From NCBI GenBank assembly GCA_029821875.1, contig JALGXW010000001.1:161987-225986 (forward strand): 64,000 nucleotides of DNA, given 5' to 3'. The notes under the pieces were generated by a model that saw nothing but the letters and a program-made list of their open reading frames with translations, ran no database searches and was not told where the DNA came from. Position numbers and translations under genes: made by a program. Positions 5,297 to 61,991 of the stretch are shown piece by piece. Numbering within the stretch: position 1 is the stretch's first letter; each line of letters opens with the position of its first letter. Origin of the DNA: Candidatus Hebobacterum abditum (GTDB lineage Bacteria > Armatimonadota > Hebobacteria > Hebobacterales > Hebobacteraceae).

Positions 5297-6445
5297 ATGA
5301 AAGACGAGCACTATCTGTTCACATCCGAATCTGTTACCGAGGGTCATCCGGACAAGATGGCCGACCAGATCTCGGACGCGGTCCTCGACGCTCTGCTCGA
5401 GCAAGATGAGAACAGTCGCGTCGCATGCGAAACCCTCATCACGACTGGACTCGTCATCGTCGCAGGGGAGGTGACCACGACCGGGTACGTGGACATTCCG
5501 GCTGTGGTTCGCGAGACGATACAGGACATCGGCTACACGCGTGCCAAGTTCGGCTTCGACTCGGAGGTCTCGGGGGTCCTGACCGGCATACAGGAGCAGT
5601 CTCCCGACATCGCGATGGGCGTGGACATCGGGGGGGCCGGCGACCAGGGGATGATGTTCGGTTACGCCGTGAACGAGACGCCGGAGCTCATGCCCATGCC
5701 CATCATGCTCGCCCACAAGATGGCGCGGCGGCTCTCCGAGGTCCGGCGGCTCGGGGAGGTGGATTACCTGCGACCGGACGGCAAGACGCAGGTCACTGTT
5801 GCCTACAACAACGGGAAGCCGGTCCACCTTAACAAAATTGTCGTGTCGGCGCACCATCGACCGGACGTGGATCACGAGCGGATCCGCAGCGACATGATCG
5901 ATCTCGTGGTTCAGAAGATATGTCCGAAGGACATGGTGGACGACGAGACTGACATCCTCGTCAACCCGACGGGCAGCTTCGAGCGAGGCGGGCCGCTCGC
6001 CGACACCGGTCTGACCGGGCGCAAGATCATCGTGGACACGTATGGGGGAGTGGGTCGGCATGGAGGCGGATGCTTCTCGGGCAAAGATGCTACGAAGGTG
6101 GACCGCTCGGCCTCATACATGATGCGCTACGTCGCGAAGAACATCGTGGCCGCGGGCCTCGCCGAGCGCGTGGAAACTCAAGTGGCCTACGCCATAGGGC
6201 ACGCGGAGCCCATGGGCTTCTGGGTCGACACCTTTGGCACCGGGAAGATCGCCGATGAGGCGCTGGCCGACATCTGCACGAAGCTGTTCAAGCTCACCCC
6301 TCGGGACATAATCGACAAGCTGCAGCTGCGGACACCGCAGTTCCGTCAGGTGGCCGCGTACGGTCACTTCGGGCGAACAGACCTCCCGGTCCTCTGGGAG
6401 CAAACGGACATGGCGGACAAGCTGCGGCAGGAGGCGGGCGTCTAG
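5297..6445 (+). CDS. metK: S-adenosylmethionine synthetase
   Basis: 382 aa; [26 protein letters not shown] and DTYGG signatures. GAGGGA RBS upstream. Confidence 0.95.
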
Positions 6446-6464
6446 GCGGGGGCCCGCCGACGGG

Positions 6465-8897
6465 ATGCCGATGTCTCTCTACGCGGAGGTGCTGCCAGAC
6501 CCGGGACGCGCGCTCGGCCAGCTTTTCACCTATCGCGTGCCCGAACACCTGCAGGACGCCGTGAGGGTAGGCTCCCAGGTACTCGTTCCCTTTGGCCCCC
6601 GCACCGTCGTTGGCTTGGTGGGCGCGTTGCGGAGCAGGAGTGGCCGCCAAGACCTGAAAGATGTCGAATCGGTCTTGGCCGACGTGCCCGCGCTCTCCGC
6701 GGATTCCCTGGCCCTCGCCGAGTGGATGGCCCGCTACTACATCTGCGAACTCGGCGAGGCCCTGCGGCCCTTCCTGCCGGAGGGAATGAGCTATCGCATC
6801 AGCCGCCGGTTCCGCCTGACCGGGCAGCCCATCCCCCCCGAGGTGCTTCGGCGCCCCGATGCCGGCCCGATCGCCGAGCACCTCCAGTCGGCCGAGAAGG
6901 AGGTAAGCATCGGGAGCCTCCGGCGGCTCCTTCCCGCGAGCCGGCTCCAGAGGGGCCTCAGGCTGCTCAAGTCGCGCGGCCTGGTCGGCGAGCGTGCTCT
7001 TCTCCTGCCACCTCGTGCCCGCGAGAGGCAAGTTCGGCTGCTCGAGGTGGCGGTGGCCGCCGGGGAGGTCGATCGGTACTGCGAGGCAAGGGCGAATCGC
7101 GCGCCCGCGCGCGTGGCCGCCCTTCGCGTAGCCCTCGTTGCAGGGGCCTCGCCGGCCGGCGAACTCGCTCGGCGGGCAGGTGTCTCCGTCGCCGCCATTC
7201 GGGGACTGGTCGACGATGGCATGTTGCGAGCCCGCTGGATCCCGGTCCGCCGAAGGCCGTGGGCGCAGGCCGCCGATGCGCTCGGCGAGCCCCCGGCTCT
7301 GACGCCCGAGCAGTCCGCGGCCGTCGCGGCCGTGACCGCCGCCGTCGATTCCGGGGAACACGCGTCCTTCCTGCTGTACGGAGTGACCGCCAGCGGGAAG
7401 ACGGAGGTCTTCCTTCGAGCTATCGAGCGCGTTTTGGCTGCTGGCAAGCAGGCCATCGTCCTGCTGCCCGAGATATCGCTCACCGCTCAGGCGATCGGTG
7501 TCTATCGGGGGCGGTTCGGCGAGCGGGTGGCGTTGGTGCATAGCGCGCTCTCGCTCGGCGAACGCTGGGACGAGTGGCAACGGATTCGCAGCGGCGATGC
7601 CGGAGTCGTGTTGGGTGCGCGTTCGGCCATCTTCGCGCCGGTGCCCAAGCTCGGCCTGGTCGTCGTGGACGAAGAGCACGAGACCTCCTACAAGCAGGAA
7701 CAGGCTCCGCGCTACCACGCGCGTGAGGTTGCGCTGAAGCGGGGGGAGCTCAGCCGCTGCCCGGTGCTCCTGGCCAGTGCGACGCCTGCCATCGAGACGT
7801 TCTACGACGCTGAGAAGGGCCGACACAAGCTGCTGCGGCTTCCGCGGCGGGTAGAGGATCGGCCGCTGCCGACCGCACGCGTGATCGACATGCGCGGGAG
7901 CGAGGGAAGGCAGACCATCCTCTCGAGCGCGCTTCGACAGGCCGTCGCCGCACGGCTGCGAGAGGGCGAGCAAGTCATCCTCTTCCTGAATCGCCGCGGG
8001 TTCGCGACCTTCCTGCTCTGCCCGACCTGCGGGCGGGCGGTTAGATGCAAGGAGTGTGGCGTTGCTCTGAAGTACCACCGAGACGCCCGCCAGGTTCGGT
8101 GCCATCACTGCAACTACGCAGAGGTCGCACCGGATATCTGCGCCAACTGCGGCAGTCATCAGATCCGGTTCTCCGGGTTCGGCACAGAGCGTGTCGAGAG
8201 GGAGCTCCGTCGAATACTCCCTGCCGCCCGGCCGGGGCGCATGGATCGCGACACCACGTCTGGCAAGGGGGCTCATGTGCGCATCGTGGGCCAGTTCCGC
8301 AGCGCCGAGACGAACGTGCTCATCGGAACGCAGATGGTTGCCAAGGGCTTCGACTTCCCCGGAGTGACGCTCGTCGGTGTCATATCGGCCGACACCTCTC
8401 TCAACTTGCCCGACTTCCGCGCGGCCGAACGGACCTTCCAGCTGCTCACCCAGGTCTCCGGCCGGGCCGGCCGCGGGGAGAAGGAGGGAGAGGTCATCGT
8501 CCAGACGTACCGGCCCGACGATGACAGCATTCGCGCCGCCGCCGCCCATGACTACGAGTCCTTCTACCGGAACGAGATCGAGAGCAGGCGGGAGTTGAAC
8601 TACCCGCCGGTATCCCAGCTCGTCAACCTCGTTGTCAGTTCGGAGGAGGAGGAGGCTGCATCCCACCGCGCTGGCGTCATTGCGGACGCTCTGCGCCGGG
8701 CCGGGGGGGAGCGAGTGCAGGTGCTGGGGCCTGCGCCTGCTCCTCTGCCGAGGCTGCGTCGGCGCTATCGGTGGCACGTCATGCTGAAGGGACCCCAGGG
8801 CGAAGTGCAGGGGGTGGTCCGAGAGGCGCTGGTTGGTCTGGGGACTGCGGAGGCAGGCATGCTGGCCGTGGATGTGGACCCAGTCTCACTCATGTGA
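6465..8897 (+). CDS. priA: primosomal protein N' (replication-restart helicase)
   Basis: 810 aa; Walker A GVTASGKT, DEEHETSYKQ, Cys4 zinc-binding region (CPTCGR...CKECG...CHHCNY...CANCG) and C-terminal helicase motifs. Confidence 0.9.
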   Translation: MPMSLYAEVLPDPGRALGQLFTYRVPEHLQDAVRVGSQVLVPFGPRTVVGLVGALRSRSGRQDLKDVESVLADVPALSADSLALAEWMARYYICELGEALRPFLPEGMSYRISRRFRLTGQPIPPEVLRRPDAGPIAEHLQSAEKEVSIGSLRRLLPASRLQRGLRLLKSRGLVGERALLLPPRARERQVRLLEVAVAAGEVDRYCEARANRAPARVAALRVALVAGASPAGELARRAGVSVAAIRGLVDDGMLRARWIPVRRRPWAQAADALGEPPALTPEQSAAVAAVTAAVDSGEHASFLLYGVTASGKTEVFLRAIERVLAAGKQAIVLLPEISLTAQAIGVYRGRFGERVALVHSALSLGERWDEWQRIRSGDAGVVLGARSAIFAPVPKLGLVVVDEEHETSYKQEQAPRYHAREVALKRGELSRCPVLLASATPAIETFYDAEKGRHKLLRLPRRVEDRPLPTARVIDMRGSEGRQTILSSALRQAVAARLREGEQVILFLNRRGFATFLLCPTCGRAVRCKECGVALKYHRDARQVRCHHCNYAEVAPDICANCGSHQIRFSGFGTERVERELRRILPAARPGRMDRDTTSGKGAHVRIVGQFRSAETNVLIGTQMVAKGFDFPGVTLVGVISADTSLNLPDFRAAERTFQLLTQVSGRAGRGEKEGEVIVQTYRPDDDSIRAAAAHDYESFYRNEIESRRELNYPPVSQLVNLVVSSEEEEAASHRAGVIADALRRAGGERVQVLGPAPAPLPRLRRRYRWHVMLKGPQGEVQGVVREALVGLGTAEAGMLAVDVDPVSLM

Positions 8898-51749: not shown

Positions 51750-51824
51750 GCCCCAGTGGCCAAGTGGATAAGGCACAGGCCTCCGGAGCCTGGATCGCAG
51801 GTTCGAATCCTGCCTGGGGTACCA
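51750..51824 (+). tRNA. tRNA-Arg (anticodon CCG), CCA encoded
   Basis: Hand-folded cloverleaf: 7-bp acceptor stem GCCCCAG/CTGGGGT (G1-U wobble), D-loop AAGTGGATAA, anticodon stem CAGGC/GCCTG with loop CU-CCG-GA, T-arm GCAGG-TTCGAAT-CCTGC, discriminator A and encoded CCA. Confidence 0.8.
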
Positions 51825-53869: not shown

Positions 53870-54967
53870 ATGGCCCAATCCTCGCGCTCAGTTACGGTTG
53901 GCGGCGTCAGGATCGGCGGCGGCGCGCCGATCACGGTTCAGTCCATGACCTCGACGGATACTCGCGACGTCGACGCGACAGTATCCCAGATTCGTCAGAT
54001 CGAGGATGCTGGCGCGGACCTCGTCCGGGTCGCCGTGCCCGACGAGGAGGCCGCTCAGGCCCTCAGCCGGATCAAGTCGCAGATGTCCGTGCCGCTGATC
54101 GCCGACATCCACTTCAACTACAGACTGGCGGTTGCGGCCGCCGAGCAGGGCGTGGACAAGCTCCGCCTCAATCCCGGCAACCTCAGCCGGCCGGAGCAGG
54201 TAGAGGCGGTCGTCGCGGCGGCCGGCGAGCGCGCCATCCCGATACGGATCGGGGTCAACGCAGGCTCCGTTCCGGAGGATGCCAGGGAGCGTCACAAGGG
54301 ACGTGGCGACGTGCAGGAGCAGGTCGCGGCGGCCATGGTTGACACTGCCCTCGGCCACGTGGAGCTGCTCGAGGGGTGGGGCTTCAGCGACATCGTCGTC
54401 TCGCTGAAGGCCTTTGACCTGCGCTCCACCTGGCTGGCGAACCGCTTGTTCAGAAAAGAGCGCGACTACCCGCTGCATCTGGGAATCACCGAGGCCGGAC
54501 TGCCGCCTGCGGGGATCGCGCGCTCTGCCATCGGCATCGCGATGCTTCTCAAGGAGGGAATCGGCGATACCATCCGTGTTTCTCTCACAGGAGATCCTGT
54601 GCTGCAGGTGAGCGTGGGTCGGGAGATCCTGTCGGCCCTCGAGTTGGGCGGCGCGGGCATAACGCTGGTGACATGCCCCACCTGCGGCCGGTGCGAGTTG
54701 GACCTGGCGGGCCTGGCGCGATCGGTGGAGGGGCAGCTTCGCCCTATCGATCGGGATCTCCGCAGGGAAGGGCGTTCGCTTCGAGTGGCGGTGATGGGAT
54801 GCGTCGTCAACGGGCCGGGTGAGGCGCGTGAGGCCGACGTCGGCATCGCTGGAGGTGCGAGCAGAGGTGTGGTATTCGTTGGGGGCAAGCCGATCGCGAC
54901 CGTCCCCGAGGGAGAGCTCGTTGGCGCCCTCGTCGATGCAGTGAACGATTATCTGAAGGGCGAGTGA
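53870..54967 (+). CDS. ispG: 4-hydroxy-3-methylbut-2-enyl diphosphate synthase (flavodoxin)
   Basis: MAQSSRSVTVGGVRIGGGAPITVQSMTSTDT N-terminus, 4Fe-4S ligands CPTCGRC...C. Confidence 0.9.
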   Translation: MAQSSRSVTVGGVRIGGGAPITVQSMTSTDTRDVDATVSQIRQIEDAGADLVRVAVPDEEAAQALSRIKSQMSVPLIADIHFNYRLAVAAAEQGVDKLRLNPGNLSRPEQVEAVVAAAGERAIPIRIGVNAGSVPEDARERHKGRGDVQEQVAAAMVDTALGHVELLEGWGFSDIVVSLKAFDLRSTWLANRLFRKERDYPLHLGITEAGLPPAGIARSAIGIAMLLKEGIGDTIRVSLTGDPVLQVSVGREILSALELGGAGITLVTCPTCGRCELDLAGLARSVEGQLRPIDRDLRREGRSLRVAVMGCVVNGPGEAREADVGIAGGASRGVVFVGGKPIATVPEGELVGALVDAVNDYLKGE

Positions 54968-54987
54968 CCACCGGGGAAGCACAGGCT

Positions 54988-55329
54988 ATGCCGCGCCGAC
55001 AGAAGCCGAGCCTGATAGAGCTCCTGGTAATCGTGTCCATCCTCGGGATTCTAGCCGCCATCGTTATCCCGGCGATGGAGCAAGCGCGTCAACGCCCTCC
55101 CTCTTCCGGGGAGCGCGTCGGCCAGGCGCATGATGTTGCGGGCGGGCCCGAGGGCTTCGACGGTCAGCTCAACACAATCGAGGTTCCCGAGCTGTCGCAG
55201 GGCCGGGATGGCGGCAGTCCCGGCCGAGCTATAGGCGTGCTCATAGGTCTCGTGCCCGTCATCCTGCCCGTCGTCGTCGTGCTGATCATCTTCGGGCGCG
55301 TGCGGCGGCAGTTGTCGGGAGGCGGATAG
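54988..55329 (+). CDS. prepilin-type N-terminal-domain-like small membrane protein (non-canonical, no Gly at -1)
   Basis: MPRRQKPSLIELLVIVSILGILAAIVIPAM resembles a class III (type IV pilin / T2SS pseudopilin) signal with Glu at +5, but lacks the G/F cleavage site. A second hydrophobic helix sits at the C-terminus. GTG 54964 is an alternative start. Confidence 0.5.
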   Translation: MPRRQKPSLIELLVIVSILGILAAIVIPAMEQARQRPPSSGERVGQAHDVAGGPEGFDGQLNTIEVPELSQGRDGGSPGRAIGVLIGLVPVILPVVVVLIIFGRVRRQLSGGG

Positions 55330-55409: not shown

Positions 55410-56135
55410 GTGGGTCCCGTCACGGAACGGCGCATCTGGGACAGCGGCGTGCTGTCCTGGCGCGACTTCATGCGGGAGCCCGGCGCCGCGGGTCTGCCTG
55501 CCCGAATCACAGGGAAGGCGGAGAGCGCCATTGGCGCCTCGCTGCGCCACCTCGAGGCCGGGAACCACAGCTACTTCGCCTCTGCCCTCGCGTCGAGGGA
55601 GCATTGGCGGGCCTACCCGGAGTTCTCCCATCGAGTCGCCTACGTGGACATCGAGACAACCGGAATGGGGGAACACGACTCGGTGACGATGGTGGGGGTG
55701 TACGATGCCCGCGGTGTCCGCATCTACACGAAAGGCGAAGACCTCCAGGACTTCGCCGACGACATCCGGCAGTACGGACTCCTCGTCACGTTCTTCGGGT
55801 CGTGCTTCGACCTGCCGTTTCTCCGCCGGCGCTTCCTCGGCCTGCGCCTCGACCAACTGCACATTGACCTCTGTCATGTGCTGCGTCGCCTCGGCCTGAA
55901 GGGTGGATTGAAGAACATCGAGCGGCAGCTGAACATCGCTCGCAGCCCCGAGACTGAGGGCCTCGGCGGGTGGGACGCGGTCAGGCTGTGGCGGGAATGG
56001 GAGCGCGGCAGTCAGGAAGCTCTGGATCTGCTCAAGGCCTACAACCGGGAGGACATCGTCAACCTCGAGAGGCTGATGCACTACGCCTACGAGCACATGT
56101 GCGAGAAGACGGGCATCCCGGCTCAGGCTGTGTAG
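55410..56135 (+). CDS. RNase-H-like / DEDD 3'-5' exonuclease-fold domain protein (YprB/PF13482-like)
   Basis: VAYVDIETTGMG (exo motif I), FFGSCFDLPFL, YNREDIVNLERL (motif III-like). About 75-aa N-terminal extension of unknown function. Confidence 0.55.
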   Translation: MGPVTERRIWDSGVLSWRDFMREPGAAGLPARITGKAESAIGASLRHLEAGNHSYFASALASREHWRAYPEFSHRVAYVDIETTGMGEHDSVTMVGVYDARGVRIYTKGEDLQDFADDIRQYGLLVTFFGSCFDLPFLRRRFLGLRLDQLHIDLCHVLRRLGLKGGLKNIERQLNIARSPETEGLGGWDAVRLWREWERGSQEALDLLKAYNREDIVNLERLMHYAYEHMCEKTGIPAQAV

Positions 56136-56196: not shown

Positions 56197-58017
56197 GTGA
56201 TGGCAGTGCGCCTGGCCTATGCTCCTTGGATCGTGCTGGGAGCCGTTGTCCTTGTGACGGCAGCGGCTCCGTCCCTGCGCGAGCAGGTCGGGTCGATGCC
56301 CGATGCGCTCATGCCGCGACTGGGGGAGGAGCCCGATCCCTCCGAGGCACATCTGGCACAGATCCAGCCGTGGTGTGATCGCGCCGTTGCCTTCGTCGAG
56401 CAACATCACCCAGACGACCCCGACATGATGCTGGCCGCCGGGGTGCTGGCCGGCGATGTCTCCCTGCTGCAGCGCGCGGCCGAGGCCAGCGACGATCCCG
56501 TCGCGTGGGCGGCCTACTGCGAGCTGCTCGAAAGCTGCGGGCCAGGCCTGACCTGCGGAGGCGGCTTCGAGCGCATCGGCTTGAGCGGCATCGACCCCGC
56601 CGACACGGCCGCTGTAGAACAGGAAGAGCGACGCATCGCTGAATCAGGGCTCCCGGCGAAGCTCACGCCCCAGGAGGTCCAGCCCAACCTTCGGGCGCTT
56701 CGAGCCTGGCAGGACGCCGATCCCGAGAACGGTCTGCCCGTCGCGCTGGAGGCGCGCTACCTGTATGCACTTCATCGGGACCGAGACGCGCTCATCGTCT
56801 GGTCCCAGGCCGGGCGAATGCCGCTCGCCACGCCCCATGCGATCCCTCGCGCCCGCGAGGCACAATGCCTTCTCACCGCGATGGGGATGCCCCAGGCCGA
56901 CGCGCTCGCGAGCTCCTGGCAGGTGATCATCCTGCCGAGCTTCGCGCGCCTCCGCAGCCTCGCCCGCGTCGCCTACTACGAAGGTCGGCGCGCGCAGATG
57001 GCGGACGATCCGTGGGGCGCCATCAACTGGTGGCAGTCCACCGTCGGGCTCGGCCGCAACCTCCAGGACTCGGCCGAGACGATCATCCAGTTCCACGTGG
57101 GCGTCGCCATCGAGGGCATCGGCGCCCGCCCCGTGTGGCGGTGGCACCACGACAACGTCACCGGCATCCCGGATGGGCCACTCTTGGGTGGCCGCTACTT
57201 CCACGGCCCTCAGCACGACTTCTACGTTGAGCACATGGACTGGAGGGCCGAAGAGGATATGATCGAGAATCTCGCTGGGGCGAGAGTTCGCAGCGGCCTC
57301 GTGCACGAATACACTGGCGGACCCGGCGGCCTTGGCGCATTTGAGGACTACTACCAAGCCAATCGCCACATTGGGGCGGCGGCCCTCTGGGCCTTCTTCG
57401 CCATTGTAGTGATAGCTGTCCTCGTGCTGTTCGGCACGTGGTCGCGGCGCGCCGCAGATGATGCGACACGACTCAGCAGCGCATGGCAGTTCCTCCTCGC
57501 GGTGCTTATCTTGCTGCCGGCCGCGGCGCTGGTCACCCTCGCACTCGCCAGCGGCGGCGCCGGCCCTGCCCTGAGGAGCGCGTCTCCGGCTGCGGGCCCG
57601 GCGGCGTCCATTGCACTTCCGGCTGGCCAAGCGGCCGTCGCGGCGACTCTACGTGCGGCCCGTGCCTGGGTCGAGGCGAGGCCCTATGTGGCGATAGGCT
57701 TGGCCGCGGCATCGGTGCTGGCTGTGCTGTTGCTTCCGCTGCTCGGGGCGGTCCTGGCCCGCGCAGGCGGGGCCCGGGTGCGGACGGCGTGGCGAGGGAA
57801 TCTGCGCCGCGTGCTACCGGTCGCGGTCGCCCTGTCTGCGCTTCTGTTCCTGTACTTCAATGTGACCGCGCTTCGCATCCGCGGTGCGTGGTTCGCCAAG
57901 TGGTCTGCGCCAGGGGTGACCGAGTTCAGCGACATGGTCGACCAGCTCGGCGGAGCGTGGCAGGAGCCGGACATCCCCTTCGACGCCTGGCGGGCCGAGC
58001 TGCCACCTGGCGCATAG
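56197..58017 (+). CDS. uncharacterised membrane protein family, tandem paralogue 1 (N-terminal signal-anchor, about 380-aa extracytoplasmic helical domain, 4 TM, conserved C-terminal DAWRAE motif)
   Basis: AGAGAGGGGG RBS. Shares the motifs WQxADPENxLPV, YEGRRAQ, WWQST, GIPDGPLLGGR, GPQHxFYV and C-terminal PDIPFDAWRAELPP with the next two genes. Confidence 0.6.
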   Translation: MMAVRLAYAPWIVLGAVVLVTAAAPSLREQVGSMPDALMPRLGEEPDPSEAHLAQIQPWCDRAVAFVEQHHPDDPDMMLAAGVLAGDVSLLQRAAEASDDPVAWAAYCELLESCGPGLTCGGGFERIGLSGIDPADTAAVEQEERRIAESGLPAKLTPQEVQPNLRALRAWQDADPENGLPVALEARYLYALHRDRDALIVWSQAGRMPLATPHAIPRAREAQCLLTAMGMPQADALASSWQVIILPSFARLRSLARVAYYEGRRAQMADDPWGAINWWQSTVGLGRNLQDSAETIIQFHVGVAIEGIGARPVWRWHHDNVTGIPDGPLLGGRYFHGPQHDFYVEHMDWRAEEDMIENLAGARVRSGLVHEYTGGPGGLGAFEDYYQANRHIGAAALWAFFAIVVIAVLVLFGTWSRRAADDATRLSSAWQFLLAVLILLPAAALVTLALASGGAGPALRSASPAAGPAASIALPAGQAAVAATLRAARAWVEARPYVAIGLAAASVLAVLLLPLLGAVLARAGGARVRTAWRGNLRRVLPVAVALSALLFLYFNVTALRIRGAWFAKWSAPGVTEFSDMVDQLGGAWQEPDIPFDAWRAELPPGA

Positions 58018-58078
58018 AGCGAAAGGCAGGCAATAGCGGCCACTTGCTGCTTTCGGGCGGCCGCGTTGGCAGGGAACT

Positions 58079-59962
58079 ATGATTAAGCCGCGCCTATCGT
58101 GGCTGGTTGTGGTCGCCGTCGTCTGCATCATCGCCGCGGTGCCGACGCTGCGCCACCACGCGGGGCTCGCCTGGCTCTCACTGAAGCCGGGGGACATAGA
58201 AGCACTGGGACTCGACGAGAACATGCCTGCGGAGGCGCATGGACCGCCCTCCTACCTCCGCGTCCTCAGTCAGCTCCGATCCCACCAAGCGAGAGCCATC
58301 GCCTTCGTCGAAGAGCACTATCCGGACGACCCGCGCATGCTGACCGCGGCGGCGCTCCTCGCTGACGAGTTCTCTCCAGGAGATCGGACTCTGCGGCTGC
58401 TCGAGCGCGCCGCCGAGCTGGGCGAGAAGCCAATTGCCTGGGCCGCCTACACCGAACGTCTCGCGGCGAAGGGCCCGCACTATGCCCGCGTGGGGTCCGG
58501 CGGGGTCGACCCCGACGACGCATTCGCAATGCAGGCTGAACGCTCGCGCCTCGCCCACTCCGGCATCCCGGACAAGCTCTCCCCGGAAGAGGCCGAGCCG
58601 ATGTTGGCTGTCGTCCGCCGGTGGCAGGCGGTCGATCCCGAGAACGCCCTCCCTGTCGTCCATGAATCCGTCTATCTGTACGGCCTCCACCAAGACAGGG
58701 AGGCGCTCATGGCCTGGGCCAGGGCCAGCCGGCTGCCCACACTGACCGCCCATTCCACAGGCCACATGCATGCCATCACCGATGTGCTCGTGGCCATGGG
58801 CATGCCTGAAGCAGACGCGCGCCTCGCCGCCTGGTCGAGCGTCCGCTGGCGGCATTTCGCTCGCCTACGGGACTGCGCTCGCATCGCCGGATATGAGGGG
58901 CGCGTCGCCCAGATCGAGGGCCGCGCCGAAGACGCCGTCACCTGGTGGCAGAGCACCTTCGACATCGGGCGCCACATGCAGGACTCCGCCGATACTCTCA
59001 TCGGCTGGCTGGTCGGCTCGGCCGTCATGAGCATCGGCACCCAGCATGTCTGGCAGTGGATCCATGACGAGCGGTCCGGCATCCCCGACGGCCCCCTCCT
59101 GGGCGGGCGCATCTTCTACGGGCCTCAGCACGGCTTCTACGTGTCCGTCATGGGCGCGGAGGCCGACGAGGACATGCGGGCCGCTCTTGTCCTCGCCAAG
59201 GTGCGCACGAAGTTGCGCCGCGGAGGCGGCTGGCCGCAGATCGCGGACGAGTACTACCTTGCAGCCGGCTATCTTCACTATGCTGGTACGCTGCTGATCG
59301 CGGCCATGGCTCTGGTGGTCGTGTTCTGCGCCCTTGGTATCTGGTCTCGCCGCGCTGCCGACGACGCTGTTCGGTCCGGCCCCCTGTGGAACCCAGTGCT
59401 GCTCGGCCTCATCTTGCTGCCGCTGGTCGTCGGAGCCCTCGCCGTACCGTTCGTCGGGGAACGTATGCCGACCAGAATGCCCGACCTCCCCGACATCGTT
59501 CCCTTCGACATTCCAGTGGAGAGCGTGGACCTCGGCCCCTTCGTGTTCTTCGGCCCGCCCATCCTCTCAGTGCTGCTTGCCGTGTTCCTCACCAGCCTGG
59601 CCGGACACAAGGGCCAGGCGCCTGGCGCCAGCCCGTTCGCCGCCTGGCGGGGCTACATCCGGCGCATCTTCCCGCCTGTGCTCGCCGTCTTCGCGCTCAT
59701 CTTCCTCGCTCTCATCATCAGTGGGCGGAACATCCGCAAGGACTGGGCTGCCTACTGGCGCACCCCCGGCAACACCGAGATGTCGTGGCATATCGAGCAC
59801 ATCGGCCCCGAATGGCACAATCCCACTATCCCACCGGACGCCTGGCGGGCCGCGCCGCCTCCTCCACCTCCACCTCCTCCGCACCCTCCAGGCAGACGCG
59901 GGATGCGAGGCTCCATGGGCAGGCGAGGTATGCGAGGCGCCCCAGGAGGCAGAGGGCCCTAG
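58079..59962 (+). CDS. uncharacterised membrane protein family, tandem paralogue 2 (with C-terminal poly-Pro/RG-rich tail)
   Basis: Same architecture and motifs as paralogue 1. C-terminus HNPTIPPDAWRAAPPPPPPPPPHPPGRRGMRGSMGRRGMRGAPGGRGP. Confidence 0.6.
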   Translation: MIKPRLSWLVVVAVVCIIAAVPTLRHHAGLAWLSLKPGDIEALGLDENMPAEAHGPPSYLRVLSQLRSHQARAIAFVEEHYPDDPRMLTAAALLADEFSPGDRTLRLLERAAELGEKPIAWAAYTERLAAKGPHYARVGSGGVDPDDAFAMQAERSRLAHSGIPDKLSPEEAEPMLAVVRRWQAVDPENALPVVHESVYLYGLHQDREALMAWARASRLPTLTAHSTGHMHAITDVLVAMGMPEADARLAAWSSVRWRHFARLRDCARIAGYEGRVAQIEGRAEDAVTWWQSTFDIGRHMQDSADTLIGWLVGSAVMSIGTQHVWQWIHDERSGIPDGPLLGGRIFYGPQHGFYVSVMGAEADEDMRAALVLAKVRTKLRRGGGWPQIADEYYLAAGYLHYAGTLLIAAMALVVVFCALGIWSRRAADDAVRSGPLWNPVLLGLILLPLVVGALAVPFVGERMPTRMPDLPDIVPFDIPVESVDLGPFVFFGPPILSVLLAVFLTSLAGHKGQAPGASPFAAWRGYIRRIFPPVLAVFALIFLALIISGRNIRKDWAAYWRTPGNTEMSWHIEHIGPEWHNPTIPPDAWRAAPPPPPPPPPHPPGRRGMRGSMGRRGMRGAPGGRGP

Positions 59963-59972
59963 GACAGGTGGC

Positions 59973-61775
59973 ATGAGTAAGCTCAGGCTTCCCTGGCTCA
60001 TCGTCGCCCTTGTCGTTGTGGTGGTCGCTGCCACACCGACGCTCCGACAGCTCGCCAGGCGCCAACTGAGGGCCGCTCTCTATCGGCCCACTGAAAGTGA
60101 CCCCGGAGCCGAATGGCTCTTTGGGGAGCGCCATCTCTGGAGCCCCGCGGCGCATGGGATGGCTTGGAGCTCTGCTCCCGACATTGGGGACCGTGCGATC
60201 CCCTTCGTGTTGGCTCACCATGCGGACGATGCCGAGATGCTCACCGCGGCCGCTGTTCTGGGCGAAGGTGAGGCGACTGACCTCGAGTGGCACGGACGGC
60301 CGGACGACGCGGAAGCTCTGAGAAAGGAGATGCACTCGCTCCTCAAGCGGGCCACATCACAGCACGGCCCGCCCGCCTGCTGGGCCGCTTACGCTGAGTA
60401 TGCGTTGTGGCATCTGACGTGTAACCGGATCGGCGCGTTGGGGATCGATCCCGAAGACGCTCAAGCCGTCCAGGAGGCGCGCTGGGAGCTGGAGGAGAGG
60501 CTAGCGTCTGATGCCGAACTGGGCTTCGTCGAGCCCACGTCCACGCAAGTCGAGGAGGCTCTTGGCGCTCTCCGCGGATGGCAGCAGGCCGACCCCGAGA
60601 ACGCGATGCCAGTCGCCCTTCGGGCGTGGGTGCTGTACGCTCTGGAGCGGGACGAGGAAGCCATAGCGGCGCTGAAGGAGGCCGCGAGCTTGCCGATCGC
60701 GACCGGCCGCGGGGCCGAACGGGGCGAGGCCGTCCGCGCGCTGGCCCTGGAACTGGACGCTTCTCCGTTGGACGCGATTCTCACAGCCAGCAACGTCTGG
60801 AGCAGCCCGTGGGTCCTGGGCAGGCTTCGGTCTCTCGGGCGCATCGCCGTCTACGAAGGGCGCCGCGCCCAGCTCGAAGGTCGGCCCGAGGATGCCATCG
60901 CGCTATGGACCGCTGCCATCAACCTCGCACGCAGCCACTCGAGGTCGGCCCACACGTTGATTGAGCATCTCGTGGGCCTGGCAGTGGAGGGAATCGCCGC
61001 CAGCCCGGTATGGCGCTGGTGCCCTGACAGCGTCACTGGCATCCCCGATGGGCCGCTCATGCGCGGCCGCCTCATGTACGGGGCTCAGTATGAGTTCTAT
61101 GTCGAACAGATGGGCGAGGAGGCCGCCGACCAGATCAGAGACAGTCTTCTGGTCGCCAAGCTCCGCTCTGCCATGCACAGGGATTACTACGGTGCTGACA
61201 CCTCCTACGAGCGTCTCTTGCTCTCTGGCTACTTCCCGTTCATCGGCCAGCTCGTCGCCGGGGCAGGGCTGCCGCTGGTGGCCCTTCTCGTCATCGTGGG
61301 GTTCTTCGGCCGAAGCTATGGAGTGCCTGGGGAGTGGGTGCGCAGGTTGAGACGCCTCGCGGTGTGGCTCCTCGTCGTCACGACCATCGCCATTGCGTGG
61401 GCGCTCGGCGGAGCACGCCTCTTCCCCGAATCCCCGATATATCCCGGCCTTCCACTTAGCCTCTTCGCCTTGCCGGGTCTGCTCGTGCTTGTGACGACCT
61501 TCCTCTTCGCCCTCTTTGCATGGGCCGACCGCGGCCCGTTCATTGCGACTTGGGGCGCGAGCCTGCGGCGTATCGTCCCACCCATGCTTGCGCTGCTCGC
61601 CGTCTGGTATCTAGTGATCTCCATCATGTCGGTTGACAGCTGCTGCAGATCGGCCCAGGAGCTCGGCCGGCCCGAAATGGCGAAGTTCATTGAGCAGGCC
61701 GGCCCCGAATGGCACAATCCCACCATTCCGCCCGACGCCTGGCGGGCCGAGTACCCGCCGAACCTCCAGCCTTGA
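59973..61775 (+). CDS. uncharacterised membrane protein family, tandem paralogue 3
   Basis: ATG 59973, 10 nt after the paralogue-2 stop; the listed ORF start 59334 is an out-of-context extension. C-terminus GPEWHNPTIPPDAWRAEYPPNLQP. Confidence 0.6.
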   Translation: MSKLRLPWLIVALVVVVVAATPTLRQLARRQLRAALYRPTESDPGAEWLFGERHLWSPAAHGMAWSSAPDIGDRAIPFVLAHHADDAEMLTAAAVLGEGEATDLEWHGRPDDAEALRKEMHSLLKRATSQHGPPACWAAYAEYALWHLTCNRIGALGIDPEDAQAVQEARWELEERLASDAELGFVEPTSTQVEEALGALRGWQQADPENAMPVALRAWVLYALERDEEAIAALKEAASLPIATGRGAERGEAVRALALELDASPLDAILTASNVWSSPWVLGRLRSLGRIAVYEGRRAQLEGRPEDAIALWTAAINLARSHSRSAHTLIEHLVGLAVEGIAASPVWRWCPDSVTGIPDGPLMRGRLMYGAQYEFYVEQMGEEAADQIRDSLLVAKLRSAMHRDYYGADTSYERLLLSGYFPFIGQLVAGAGLPLVALLVIVGFFGRSYGVPGEWVRRLRRLAVWLLVVTTIAIAWALGGARLFPESPIYPGLPLSLFALPGLLVLVTTFLFALFAWADRGPFIATWGASLRRIVPPMLALLAVWYLVISIMSVDSCCRSAQELGRPEMAKFIEQAGPEWHNPTIPPDAWRAEYPPNLQP

Positions 61776-61801
61776 CGGGCCGCGCTCGCTCATGGTATAA
61801 G
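61772..61801 (+). promoter_or_regulatory. candidate promoter TTGACG-18-TATAAG for the ileS leader
   Basis: Both hexamers are 5/6 to consensus with 18-nt spacing, immediately after the paralogue-3 stop; predicted TSS about 61808, just upstream of the leader ORF ATG at 61814. Confidence 0.45.
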
Positions 61802-61813
61802 TGCAACAGACAG

Positions 61814-61900
61814 ATGAACCGCATGGCCATCCTGATTGCCAGCATCATCATTATCGACCCGGCGGTGAGCCGGGAGCGATGCTGGATGTCAGGAAGGTAG
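61814..61900 (+). CDS. Ile-rich leader peptide MNRMAILIASIIIIDPAVSRERCWMSGR (28 aa; 25 aa from second ATG)
   Basis: Six Ile in ten residues, including four consecutive Ile codons ATC ATC ATT ATC at 61844-61855. Located between a promoter and mutually exclusive hairpins directly upstream of ileS. Confidence 0.5.
   Translation: MNRMAILIASIIIIDPAVSRERCWMSGR
61861..61873 (+). promoter_or_regulatory. antiterminator arm GGCGGTGAGCCGG (pairs with 61927-61939)
   Basis: 12 of 13 positions complementary to CCGGCCCACCGCC (61927-61939), which is also the 5' arm of the downstream terminator. Begins 5 nt after the last Ile codon. Confidence 0.4.
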
Positions 61901-61929
61901 TCCCAGACAACGAGCGCCAGCAGGCTCCG

Positions 61930-61966
61930 GCCCACCGCCAGACGAGGCGGTGGGCTTTTCGCGTTT
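61930..61966 (+). terminator. intrinsic terminator / attenuator hairpin upstream of ileS
   Basis: 10-bp GC-rich stem GCCCACCGCC / GGCGGTGGGC, 6-nt loop, followed by CTTTTCGCGTTTG. 26 nt upstream of the ileS ATG. Confidence 0.55.
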
Positions 61967-61991
61967 GTGGTGCTAGGAACGGAGCGGGGAG

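What the first reader, a model, noticed from the sequence alone, without database searches (positions are those of the whole stretch)
56197..61775. Tandem triplication of an unrecognised roughly 600-aa membrane-protein family
Three consecutive same-strand genes (606, 627 and 600 aa) share one architecture. Each has an N-terminal signal-anchor helix, a roughly 380-aa extracytoplasmic, largely helical domain, four TM helices and a short cytoplasmic tail.
They also share blocks of strongly conserved sequence: (H/Y)YPDDP.ML.AA, WQxADPEN(A/G)LPV, YEGR.AQ, WWQST, LVG.AV.I, W.W..D..(T/S)GIPDGPL..GR, YGPQH.FYV, and C-terminal GPEWHNPTIPPDAWRA(E).
I do not recognise this family from memory, and it carries no obvious catalytic signature such as HExxH or Ser-Lys. 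Tandem paralogue arrays of sensor-like membrane proteins often mark diversified recognition or signalling functions. The genes sit between a DEDD-exonuclease-domain gene with a pilin-like gene on one side and the ileS leader on the other.
Basis: seen in the sequence. Interest (0 to 1): 0.6.

Follow-up and report, generated by a model that had tools for sequence, protein, structure and literature searches.

The report
Three tandem TPR-like membrane protein genes
Three neighbouring genes of an uncultivated Armatimonadota bacterium encode members of an undescribed family of five-pass membrane proteins with a large helical-repeat domain facing the cell envelope; relatives with an extra N-terminal piece sit directly behind stress (ECF) sigma factor genes, so the family probably binds or senses something in the envelope, but nothing about its function has been tested.

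Summary
Three intact same-strand genes (606, 627 and 600 aa) share one architecture and most of the listed motifs. Orthologues evolve under purifying selection (dN/dS 0.21-0.32).

Two corrections:
- Five TM helices plus the positive-inside rule place the conserved C-terminal tail outside the cell, not in the cytoplasm.
- The genes are old paralogues (38-45% identity), not a recent triplication.

The family is far larger than three genes: 1338 clusters at 50% identity. Every named source record but one (a MAG labelled Bacillota) is an Armatimonadota MAG.

The one functional clue comes from a nested clade. Its members carry a roughly 45-aa cytoplasmic N-terminal module and, in 7 of 7 loci examined, overlap the stop codon of an ECF sigma gene, which is the anti-sigma layout.

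The window's genes lack that module, and no sigma gene lies in the window. They sit in a conserved block: ispG, a small pilin-like gene, an RNase H-like exonuclease gene, then the family.

My best reading is a stand-alone periplasmic binding or sensor protein (confidence 0.4). An envelope enzyme remains possible. Interest is moderate.

The parts
56197..58017 (+). Paralogue 1 (606 aa), short form. It is the copy closest to the single-copy orthologues at the same locus in related genomes.
   Evidence: ORF. Family HMM E = 5e-255. Orthologues L008_a and L009_a give dN/dS 0.21-0.23. Best hits outside its own clade are P0006-P0017 at 48-50%.
58079..59962 (+). Paralogue 2 (627 aa), short form. This is the protein that was modelled.
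   Evidence: ORF. HMM E = 6e-230. AF2 pLDDT 87.7, pTM 0.84. dN/dS 0.25-0.30.
59973..61775 (+). Paralogue 3 (600 aa), short form and the most divergent copy, from an old separate lineage.
   Evidence: ORF from the ATG at 59973. HMM E = 1e-181. Best hits are P0091 (48%) and P0089 (38%). dN/dS 0.32 against L017. JGI names it 'tetratricopeptide (TPR) repeat protein'.
58094..58162 (+). Paralogue 2, TM1 (about aa 6-28). N-in signal anchor followed by the conserved P-x-L-R.
   Evidence: Hydropathy. AF2 helices 6-20 and 22-33 with pLDDT 84-96. K/R-rich N-terminus.
58166..59245 (+). Paralogue 2, extracytoplasmic TPR-like alpha-solenoid (about aa 30-389). It contains one beta-hairpin (aa 325-347) and the family-wide residues D84, R137, D186-P-x-N189 and D206.
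59246..59737 (+). Paralogue 2, four-TM bundle (about aa 390-553). It has two conserved basic cytoplasmic loops (WSRRAADxA and AWRGxLRR) and a hypervariable outer loop between TM3 and TM4.
   Evidence: Loop conservation is 0.51 and 0.61 against 0.10 for the outer loop. Charge bias.
59738..59866 (+). Paralogue 2, conserved extracytoplasmic C-terminal tail (about aa 554-596). It includes E567 and the motif GPEWxNPxIPPDAWRAxPP.
   Evidence: Conservation 0.54, with E567 conserved family-wide. pLDDT 89-96. Topology by TM count and charge.
59867..59959 (+). Paralogue 2, extra Pro9 plus Arg/Gly/Met-rich low-complexity tail (aa 597-626). The other two paralogues lack it.
   Evidence: Conserved in the orthologue L008_b. 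pLDDT below 65.
54964..55329 (+). Conserved neighbour: a small (121 aa) two-TM protein with a pilin-like N-terminal helix but no Gly at position -1. This is association only; a functional link is not shown.
   Evidence: Weak PilA N-terminal match. Present upstream of the family in L001, L004, L006, L015 and L025.
55410..56135 (+). Conserved neighbour: an RNase H-like (PolB-exonuclease-like) protein directly upstream of the family gene in all syntenic loci. This is association only.
   Evidence: PF13482, E = 2.8e-35. Synteny.

Best explanation
The three genes encode stand-alone ('short-form') members of an undescribed family of polytopic envelope proteins. Every named source record but one is an Armatimonadota MAG.

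Predicted structure (not demonstrated). Each protein starts inside the cell with a signal-anchor helix. It then exposes a roughly 360-residue TPR-like helical solenoid to the periplasm and re-enters the membrane as a four-helix bundle. It ends outside with a conserved ~45-residue tail.

Inferred mechanism.
- The tail supplies a family-wide conserved glutamate (E567) and probably folds back onto the solenoid.
- The solenoid plus tail form a binding site for an envelope component, either a peptide/protein segment or a polymer. The site lies around the universally conserved acidic/polar residues D84, R137, D186-P-x-N189, D206 and E567.
- The membrane bundle and its two conserved basic cytoplasmic loops anchor the module and possibly relay occupancy.

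Evidence from relatives. In a nested clade the same module was fused to a ~45-aa cytoplasmic N-terminal module and translationally coupled to ECF sigma genes. There it acts as the sensor part of an anti-sigma factor.

The window's copies. They lack that N-terminal module, so they cannot hold a sigma factor that way. I take them to be the ancestral, sigma-independent binding or scaffold form, duplicated in tandem. All three keep the same core site and differ mainly in linkers and outer loops.
For: Architecture and topology:
- Hydropathy, AF2 model and charge bias agree.
- The N-in orientation is independently required by the long forms, whose N-terminal module must reach a cytoplasmic sigma.

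Fold:
- TPR_2 is a sub-threshold hit in paralogue 3.

Conservation pattern typical of a binding module:
- TM helices are the less conserved parts (0.37-0.50).
- The ectodomain, the tail and the cytoplasmic loops score 0.51-0.61.
- No polar residues are conserved inside the membrane.
- E567 in the tail is conserved even in the ~20%-identity clade. This fits the tail and ectodomain lying on the same side.

Anti-sigma relatives:
- 7 of 7 long-form loci overlap the stop of an ECF sigma gene by 8-17 nt.
- The N-terminal module is shared (43% over 74 aa, E = 8e-18) with sigma-coupled proteins that have unrelated ectodomains.
- Those sigmas form one group at 45-65% identity.
- Long forms are a nested, roughly monophyletic clade.

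The window's genes:
- No room for an N-terminal extension, and no ECF sigma in the window.
- Purifying selection on all three.
- All universal residues are retained in all three.
- Conserved housekeeping synteny extends to a relative at 35% identity.
Against: - No ligand, partner or phenotype is known. Everything about function is inference from relatives and from a predicted structure.
- I could not read the model's coordinates, so docking of the tail onto the solenoid is not shown.
- A family-wide cluster of carboxylates (D84, D186, D206, E567) plus N189 and R137 is more than most TPR scaffolds conserve, and would also suit an enzyme or a metal site.
- The most conserved segment is a cytoplasmic loop (AWRGNLRR, 0.61), which a purely periplasmic binder does not explain.
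- The synteny partners (ispG, pilin-like gene, exonuclease) suggest no envelope ligand.
- Two of the seven long-form loci (L012, L014) carry frameshifts or deletions, from MAG errors or decay.
- The tree is neighbour-joining without bootstrap support.
Confidence: 0.4

Rival explanations
1. The proteins are membrane-anchored periplasmic enzymes, such as a hydrolase, lyase or transferase acting on a cell-envelope polymer or lipid-linked intermediate. The conserved carboxylates and asparagine form the active site, and the TM bundle positions it at the membrane surface.
For: - D84, D186-P-x-N189, D206, E567 and R137 are conserved even in the ~20%-identity clade, and N189 is 100% conserved.
- Some long-form loci lie next to polysaccharide genes: a flippase-like Polysacc_synt_3 gene, a pyruvyl transferase and a GT2.
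Against: - No hit to any enzyme family in Pfam, NCBIfam or the PDB.
- No known catalytic motif is present.
- Use of the module as the extracytoplasmic part of anti-sigma factors is more typical of a binding domain, although enzyme-like sensor domains do exist.
Confidence: 0.2
2. The short forms are themselves signal transducers. The two conserved basic cytoplasmic loops bind a cytoplasmic regulator, or the short forms pair in the membrane with other anti-sigma factors. The regulator could be a sigma factor, for example the ECF sigma that lies just downstream of the family gene in related genomes. The array would then tune a sigma regulon.
For: - The cytoplasmic loops are the most conserved segments (0.51 and 0.61).
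- In L001 and L004 the single family gene lies 100-140 nt upstream of an ECF sigma plus FecR-domain pair. In L006 the same pair follows after ileS.
- Genomes carry both short and long forms (CP070816.1: L010 and L011).
Against: - That downstream sigma already has its own FecR-type partner, and it belongs to a different sigma group from the ones coupled to long forms (25-33% identity).
- L025 has the family pair but no adjacent sigma.
- ileS, with its own promoter-like element and attenuator, separates the array from anything downstream in the window.
- About 30 loop residues is very little surface for binding a sigma factor.
Confidence: 0.15
3. The proteins are assembly or docking factors for a type IV pilus or type II secretion-like apparatus, in the manner of TPR proteins such as PilF/PilW. 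They would work with the pilin-like small protein encoded two genes upstream.
For: - A small gene with a pilin-like N-terminus is conserved two genes upstream in every syntenic locus.
- An MshE-type T2SSE ATPase gene lies 6-8 kb downstream in L001, L004 and L025.
Against: - The PilF match is no better than dozens of unrelated TPR proteins.
- The small protein lacks the Gly at -1 that prepilin peptidase needs, and it has a second TM.
- There is no lipoprotein signal on the family proteins.
- Copies elsewhere in genomes (L010, L013, L018) have no pilus genes nearby.
Confidence: 0.08
4. The ORFs are decaying or non-functional duplicates.
For: - Frameshifted or internally deleted relatives exist (L012, L014, L015).
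- Paralogue 3 has lost several family motifs.
Against: - All three are intact, and each has an intact orthologue in at least one other MAG, with dN/dS 0.21-0.32.
- The closest relative keeps all three copies in the same order (L008 plus L017).
- All universal residues are retained.
Confidence: 0.02

Closest known systems
Membrane-anchored ECF anti-sigma factors (RseA, RsiW, FecR types; short class II anti-sigma domains such as CnrY)
   Same: Long-form relatives have the standard layout. The gene lies at +1 from an ECF sigma gene with overlapping stop and start. A short cytoplasmic N-terminal module comes first, then a TM helix, then an extracytoplasmic domain. The module is predicted as two helices of about 14 and 11 residues at low confidence. 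From my own knowledge, this resembles the short class II domains.
   Different: - The window's three genes have no cytoplasmic N-terminal module and no adjacent sigma gene.
- The long forms have five TM helices. The ECF census of Casas-Pastor et al. 2021 (PMC7826278) lists anti-sigma factors with 1, 2, 3, 4 or 6 TM helices, but not five.
- The N-terminal module matches no Pfam anti-sigma domain.
Bacterial envelope TPR proteins (PilF/PilW, YrrB, MamA; from my own knowledge also BamD, YfgM, CcmI/CycH, BepA)
   Different: - No specific relationship: 7-15% identity, high rmsd, and eukaryotic TPR proteins score equally well.
- None of these has the architecture of one TM, a solenoid, four TMs and an outside tail.
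- The family has its own invariant motifs (DPxN, YEGR, GIPxGPLxGGR).
Polytopic anti-sigma factors (NrsF, DUF1109, six TM; CarR of Myxococcus), named from my own knowledge
   Same: Multi-pass membrane proteins that control ECF sigma factors.
   Different: They have no large periplasmic solenoid, a different TM count and no sequence similarity. No Pfam hit to these families appeared.

Membership tests
Any curated protein family (Pfam-A 2025, NCBIfam 20.0, PADLOC 2.0, PHROGs v4) | Score at or above the family's curated threshold | tested here: not met
   No hit above threshold for the three proteins or for 20 further family members scanned against Pfam (NCBIfam also none for two long forms). The best hit was TPR_2 at 19.9 bits against a cut-off of 27, in paralogue 3 only.
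TPR / TPR-like solenoid superfamily | Tandem helix-turn-helix hairpins forming a superhelix, recognisable by structure | tested here: inconclusive
ECF anti-sigma factor | A cytoplasmic anti-sigma domain able to bind sigma2/sigma4 | tested here: not met
   Only about 5 residues precede TM1 in all three window proteins, and the reading frames leave no room for more. Long-form relatives do carry a ~45-aa module. Its binding to sigma is inferred, not tested.
ECF anti-sigma factor | Gene adjacent to (usually +1 from) and co-transcribed with an ECF sigma gene | tested here: not met
   No ECF sigma ORF anywhere in the 64-kb window. The feature is met in 7 of 7 long-form loci.
ECF anti-sigma factor | Inhibition of the cognate sigma factor | not testable with these tools
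   This needs a reporter or binding experiment, or at least a complex prediction.
Type IV pilus TPR assembly lipoproteins (PilF/PilW/Tgl) | Lipoprotein signal peptide with lipobox Cys; about six canonical TPRs; encoded with pilus genes | tested here: not met
   The N-terminus is a signal anchor with no lipobox Cys. Canonical TPRs are not detected. Only a pilin-like small gene lies nearby.
(alpha/alpha)n-barrel glycan-active enzymes | Closed alpha/alpha toroid with catalytic Asp/Glu, or Asn/His/Tyr/Arg, in the central cleft | tested here: inconclusive

The most novel reading that the evidence does not exclude
The family is a new class of polytopic envelope sensor. Its sigma-coupled long forms would be a previously undescribed five-TM, TPR-solenoid type of ECF anti-sigma factor. 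Its stand-alone short forms, including the window's three, would act as co-sensors. They would heteromerise with the long forms or signal through the conserved cytoplasmic loops. Tandem paralogue arrays would then set the ligand range of a sigma response.
Probability: 0.15. Interest if true: 0.6.

Novelty: new variant of a known kind. Interest (0 to 1): 0.35.

Why it matters
- If the reading is right, Armatimonadota carry a large (over 1300 clusters at 50% identity), entirely unannotated family of envelope-facing membrane proteins.
- The core module of this family has been recruited at least once as the sensor of an ECF anti-sigma factor with an unusual five-helix topology.
- That would give a name and a testable hypothesis to hundreds of 'hypothetical proteins' in a poorly studied phylum.
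- It would also add a new architecture to the catalogue of anti-sigma factors.
- For the three genes in the window the gain is modest. They are the sigma-independent form, in an uncultivated organism, and their ligand is unknown.

Tried and rejected
Searches that found nothing useful:
- Pfam, NCBIfam, PADLOC and PHROGs on the three proteins and on relatives: nothing.
- PDB sequence-profile searches with A1 and A3: only noise on the TM helices, best E = 0.007 to GPCRs.
- The word-indexed homologue search saturated. It returned 32 and then 12 hits, whereas the exhaustive HMM search found 1338.
- Searching with the 70-aa N-terminal module alone gave nothing significant against 5.8 billion sequences.
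- Literature: no paper links ECF or anti-sigma factors to Armatimonadetes in this way. The paper describing the class Hebobacteria does not mention sigma factors, TPR or pili.
- Promoter and terminator scans inside the array were at background level.
- Rfam found nothing in the region.

Ideas rejected:
- Mis-annotated long forms: no upstream coding room.
- Pseudogenes: dN/dS 0.21-0.32.
- A defence or phage element.
- A recent triplication.


Full report
WHAT IS THERE

Three same-strand ORFs occupy 56197-58017 (606 aa), 58079-59962 (627 aa) and 59973-61775 (600 aa). The mechanical ORF of the third runs back to a TTG at 59334, but that part overlaps gene 2 in another frame. Homologues align from the ATG at 59973. 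The spacers are 61 and 10 nt, and each start is preceded by a purine-rich SD-like stretch. No convincing promoter or terminator lies inside the array.

Genes 2 and 3 are 45% and 38% identical to gene 1. A family HMM finds exactly these three copies in the window, at E = 5e-255, 6e-230 and 1e-181. Gene 3 departs from several of them, and gene 1 differs in the C-terminal motif.

The sequences are on record as 'hypothetical protein' (twice) and 'tetratricopeptide (TPR) repeat protein', on a 341,731-bp contig. The nearest relatives are MAGs of the class Candidatus Hebobacteria, phylum Armatimonadota.

REAL GENES, OLD PARALOGUES

Each gene has an intact orthologue in other MAGs, with dN/dS of 0.21-0.32. 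The closest MAG keeps all three copies in the same order, split over two contigs (L008 and L017).

- Paralogues 1 and 2 both hit best to the single-copy gene at the same locus in other genomes, at 44-50% identity.
- Paralogue 3 hits best to a different lineage (P0091 48%, P0089 38%).
- Copy number at this locus is 1 in L001 and L004, 2 in L006, 3 here, and 2 in the distant L025.
- In L025 the two copies are each other's best hits, so that is an independent duplication.

The array is therefore not a recent triplication, but tandem duplication at this locus is recurrent.

ARCHITECTURE AND TOPOLOGY

Hydropathy gives one N-terminal TM, a domain of about 360 residues and four more TMs in each protein. 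The AlphaFold2 model of paralogue 2, built on a 32-sequence alignment, is confident (pLDDT 87.7, pTM 0.84). It is almost entirely helical, with one beta-hairpin at residues 325-347.

Five TM helices and an N-in start put the large domain outside and the C-terminal tail outside as well. Over 139 family members:

- The TM2-3 loop is net +1.65 and the TM4-5 loop net +4.33, so both are cytoplasmic.
- The TM3-4 loop is net -0.9, so it lies outside.
- The tail is net -0.1 to -0.9.

The N-in orientation is independently required by the long-form relatives described below.

WHAT IT RESEMBLES

The ectodomain is therefore TPR-like at fold level only. The whole architecture has no solved counterpart.

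SIZE AND SPREAD OF THE FAMILY

The word-indexed search found 32 relatives. The exhaustive profile search found 1338 clusters at 50% identity at E <= 1e-3, of which 693 are at <= 1e-10 and 167 at <= 1e-30. Every named source record is an Armatimonadota MAG, apart from one MAG labelled Bacillota. Genomes carry several copies at different loci, for example CP070816.1 and CAZLHI01.

THE FUNCTIONAL CLUE: A SIGMA-COUPLED CLADE

About 20 of the 131 full-length proteins held at that point (the hits) carry a roughly 45-residue extension before TM1, with consensus M-x-E-R-x-D-x-E-L-x-x-L-L-x-x-A-x-P-x-P-x-x-G-W-x-x-R-A-L-x-x-M.

- In all seven long-form loci I could read, the gene starts 8-17 nt before the stop of an ECF sigma gene: L003/L011, L012, L014, L021, L022, L023 and L024.
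- Sigma70_r2 and r4_2 are present, and TIGR02937 scores above its cut-off. In L024 only the sigma4 end lies on the contig.
- The same N-terminal module occurs on neighbouring sigma-coupled proteins whose ectodomains are unrelated: 43% identity over 74 aa, E = 8e-18.
- The sigmas coupled to this module form one group at 45-65% identity. They are distinct from the FecR-linked sigmas found downstream of short forms, at 25-33%.
- In a neighbour-joining tree the long forms form a nested, nearly monophyletic clade (no bootstrap).
- A model of the long form P0039 predicts two short helices for the module at low confidence, then TM1, a disordered linker and the same confident core.

By the usual genomic criteria the long forms are anti-sigma factors. 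The census of Casas-Pastor et al. 2021 lists anti-sigma factors with 1, 2, 3, 4 or 6 TM helices, not five (PMC7826278).

Caveat: two of the seven long-form genes (L012, L014) are interrupted by a frameshift or a deletion. This could be MAG error or gene decay.

WHERE THE WINDOW'S GENES STAND

They are short forms. About five residues precede TM1, there is no coding room upstream, and there is no ECF sigma gene in the 64 kb.

They sit in a conserved block: obg, proA, nadD, lytR, rsfS, a TPR gene, a nitroreductase gene, htpX, ispG, a small pilin-like gene, an RNase_H_2 gene, and then the family. The last four genes of this block are kept even in L025, whose family protein is only 35% identical.

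Downstream, related genomes have an ECF sigma plus FecR-domain pair. It follows either directly (L001, L004) or after ileS (L006). L025 has none. In the window, ileS follows with its own leader (see below).

CONSERVATION PATTERN

Within the main clade the mean frequency of the commonest residue per column is:

- TM4-5 cytoplasmic loop (AWRGNLRR): 0.61
- Ectodomain: 0.54
- C-terminal tail: 0.54
- TM2-3 cytoplasmic loop (WSRRAADEA): 0.51
- TM helices: 0.37-0.50
- N-terminal linker: 0.17
- Outer TM3-4 loop: 0.10

Across the whole family, including a ~20%-identity clade, the surviving polar residues are D84, R137, D186-P-x-N189 (N189 is invariant), D206 and E567. E567 lies in the tail just after TM5. 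This fits the tail and the solenoid forming one extracytoplasmic unit. All three window paralogues keep every one of these residues. They therefore probably share one core activity and differ in peripheral loops.

MOST LIKELY MECHANISM AND RIVALS

I commit to a periplasmic binding or sensor module, at confidence 0.4. The solenoid and the folded-back tail bind an envelope component at the conserved acidic/polar site. The TM bundle anchors the module and may relay occupancy to the two basic cytoplasmic loops.

- Shown: the genes, their paralogy, purifying selection, absence from curated libraries, and the sigma coupling of the long forms.
- Predicted: the fold and the topology.
- Inferred: the binding role, the docking of the tail, and the ancestral status of the short forms.

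Rivals:

- An envelope enzyme using the carboxylate cluster (0.2). Supported by the unusually deep conservation of D, D, N, D and E. Weakened by the lack of any enzyme-like fold or sequence hit.
- A transducer acting through the cytoplasmic loops or through pairing with anti-sigma factors (0.15).
- A pilus or secretion assembly factor (0.08). This rests only on the pilin-like neighbour and a distant MshE-type ATPase gene.
- Decaying duplicates (0.02), contradicted.

COMPARISON WITH KNOWN SYSTEMS, AND NOVELTY

The family works most like the extracytoplasmic sensor part of membrane anti-sigma factors, and it looks most like bacterial envelope TPR proteins. The window's genes fail two defining tests for an anti-sigma factor: they have no anti-sigma domain and no adjacent sigma gene. 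They cannot be placed in any specific TPR family.

I rate this a new variant of a known kind: an undescribed protein family built from familiar elements, not a new category of system. Interest is moderate at 0.35. The family is large and unannotated, and the five-TM anti-sigma architecture would interest ECF specialists. Against that, the window's copies are the sigma-independent form, in an uncultivated lineage, and no ligand or phenotype is in sight.

SEEN IN PASSING

The 216-nt spacer between paralogue 3 and ileS is about 95% identical at the nucleotide level among three genomes, while the flanking proteins are only 70-85% identical.

- It encodes a 28-codon peptide, MNRMAILIASIIIIDPAVSRERCWMSGR, with four consecutive Ile codons (five in L017).
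- A 10-bp GC hairpin and a U-tract follow, about 20 nt before the ileS start.
- Rfam finds no T-box even at E <= 1.

This looks like a leader-peptide attenuator of ileS.

Noticed in passing
window 61776-61991 (leader ORF 61814-61900; hairpin about 61929-61958); also L009 7798-8010, L006 13587-13800, L017 1281-1500: The spacer between paralogue 3 and ileS is about 95% identical at nucleotide level across three genomes, while the flanking proteins are only 70-85% identical. It holds a 28-codon ORF, MNRMAILIASIIIIDPAVSRERCWMSGR, with 7 Ile in the first 14 codons and 4 in a row (5 in L017). Then comes GCCCACCGCC-AGACGA-GGCGGUGGGC plus UUUUCGCGUUUG, about 20 nt before the ileS ATG. A stretch inside the ORF (GGCGGUGAGCC) could pair with the 5' arm of the hairpin as an antiterminator. 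There is no T-box or other Rfam hit even at E <= 1. It looks like a ribosome-mediated (leader-peptide) attenuator of ileS.
   Followed up: partly
window 54964-55329; L001 8770-9114, L004 8834-9202, L006 8688-9029, L015 2907-3272, L025 6765-7121: A small (113-122 aa) conserved protein has a pilin-like N-terminal helix (..KPSLIELLVIVSILGILAAIVIPA) with the Glu at +5. It lacks the Gly at -1 that prepilin peptidase needs. It also has a conserved GQLNTIEV(S/P)E motif and a second, C-terminal TM. It always lies between ispG and the RNase_H_2 gene.
   Followed up: partly
window 59867-59959 (paralogue 2 aa 597-626); also L008_b, P0044, P0049, P0181, L013, L025_603: Some family members end in a Pro-rich run followed by an Arg/Gly(/Met)-rich low-complexity tail, after the conserved C-terminal motif. 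By the inferred topology this basic tail lies outside the cell. Its role is unknown.
   Followed up: no
L012 4613-6904 and 6183-6491; L014 5674-6921 and 6918-7475; L015 4086-5618: Two sigma-coupled long-form genes are split by a frameshift or a deletion (L012 at HMM position 475; L014 between positions 344 and 375). The syntenic short form in L015 lacks HMM positions 411-492, which is roughly TM3, the outer loop and TM4. That deletion would preserve the outside position of the tail. These could be MAG assembly errors or real decay.
   Followed up: partly
L023 3096-4953; L012 2027-3851: The ~45-aa N-terminal module plus TM of the long forms also occurs on other proteins that follow ECF sigma genes of the same group but carry unrelated ectodomains. 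One is a PD40 beta-propeller protein, the other a 420-aa protein without a Pfam match. It appears to be a portable anti-sigma module that is not in Pfam.
   Followed up: partly
L020 5578-9966 (JAWLHY010000002.1, Armatimonadota MAG): Three tandem genes of 445-455 aa each have an N-terminal TM. One of them (5578-6915) matches the family ectodomain over only about 70 residues (34% identity, E = 2e-5). They may be a distant, single-pass branch that is again arrayed in tandem.
   Followed up: no
window 51750-51824: tRNA-Arg (CCG), the only tRNA or Rfam hit in the 64-kb window. It lies between the nitroreductase and methyltransferase genes.
   Followed up: no
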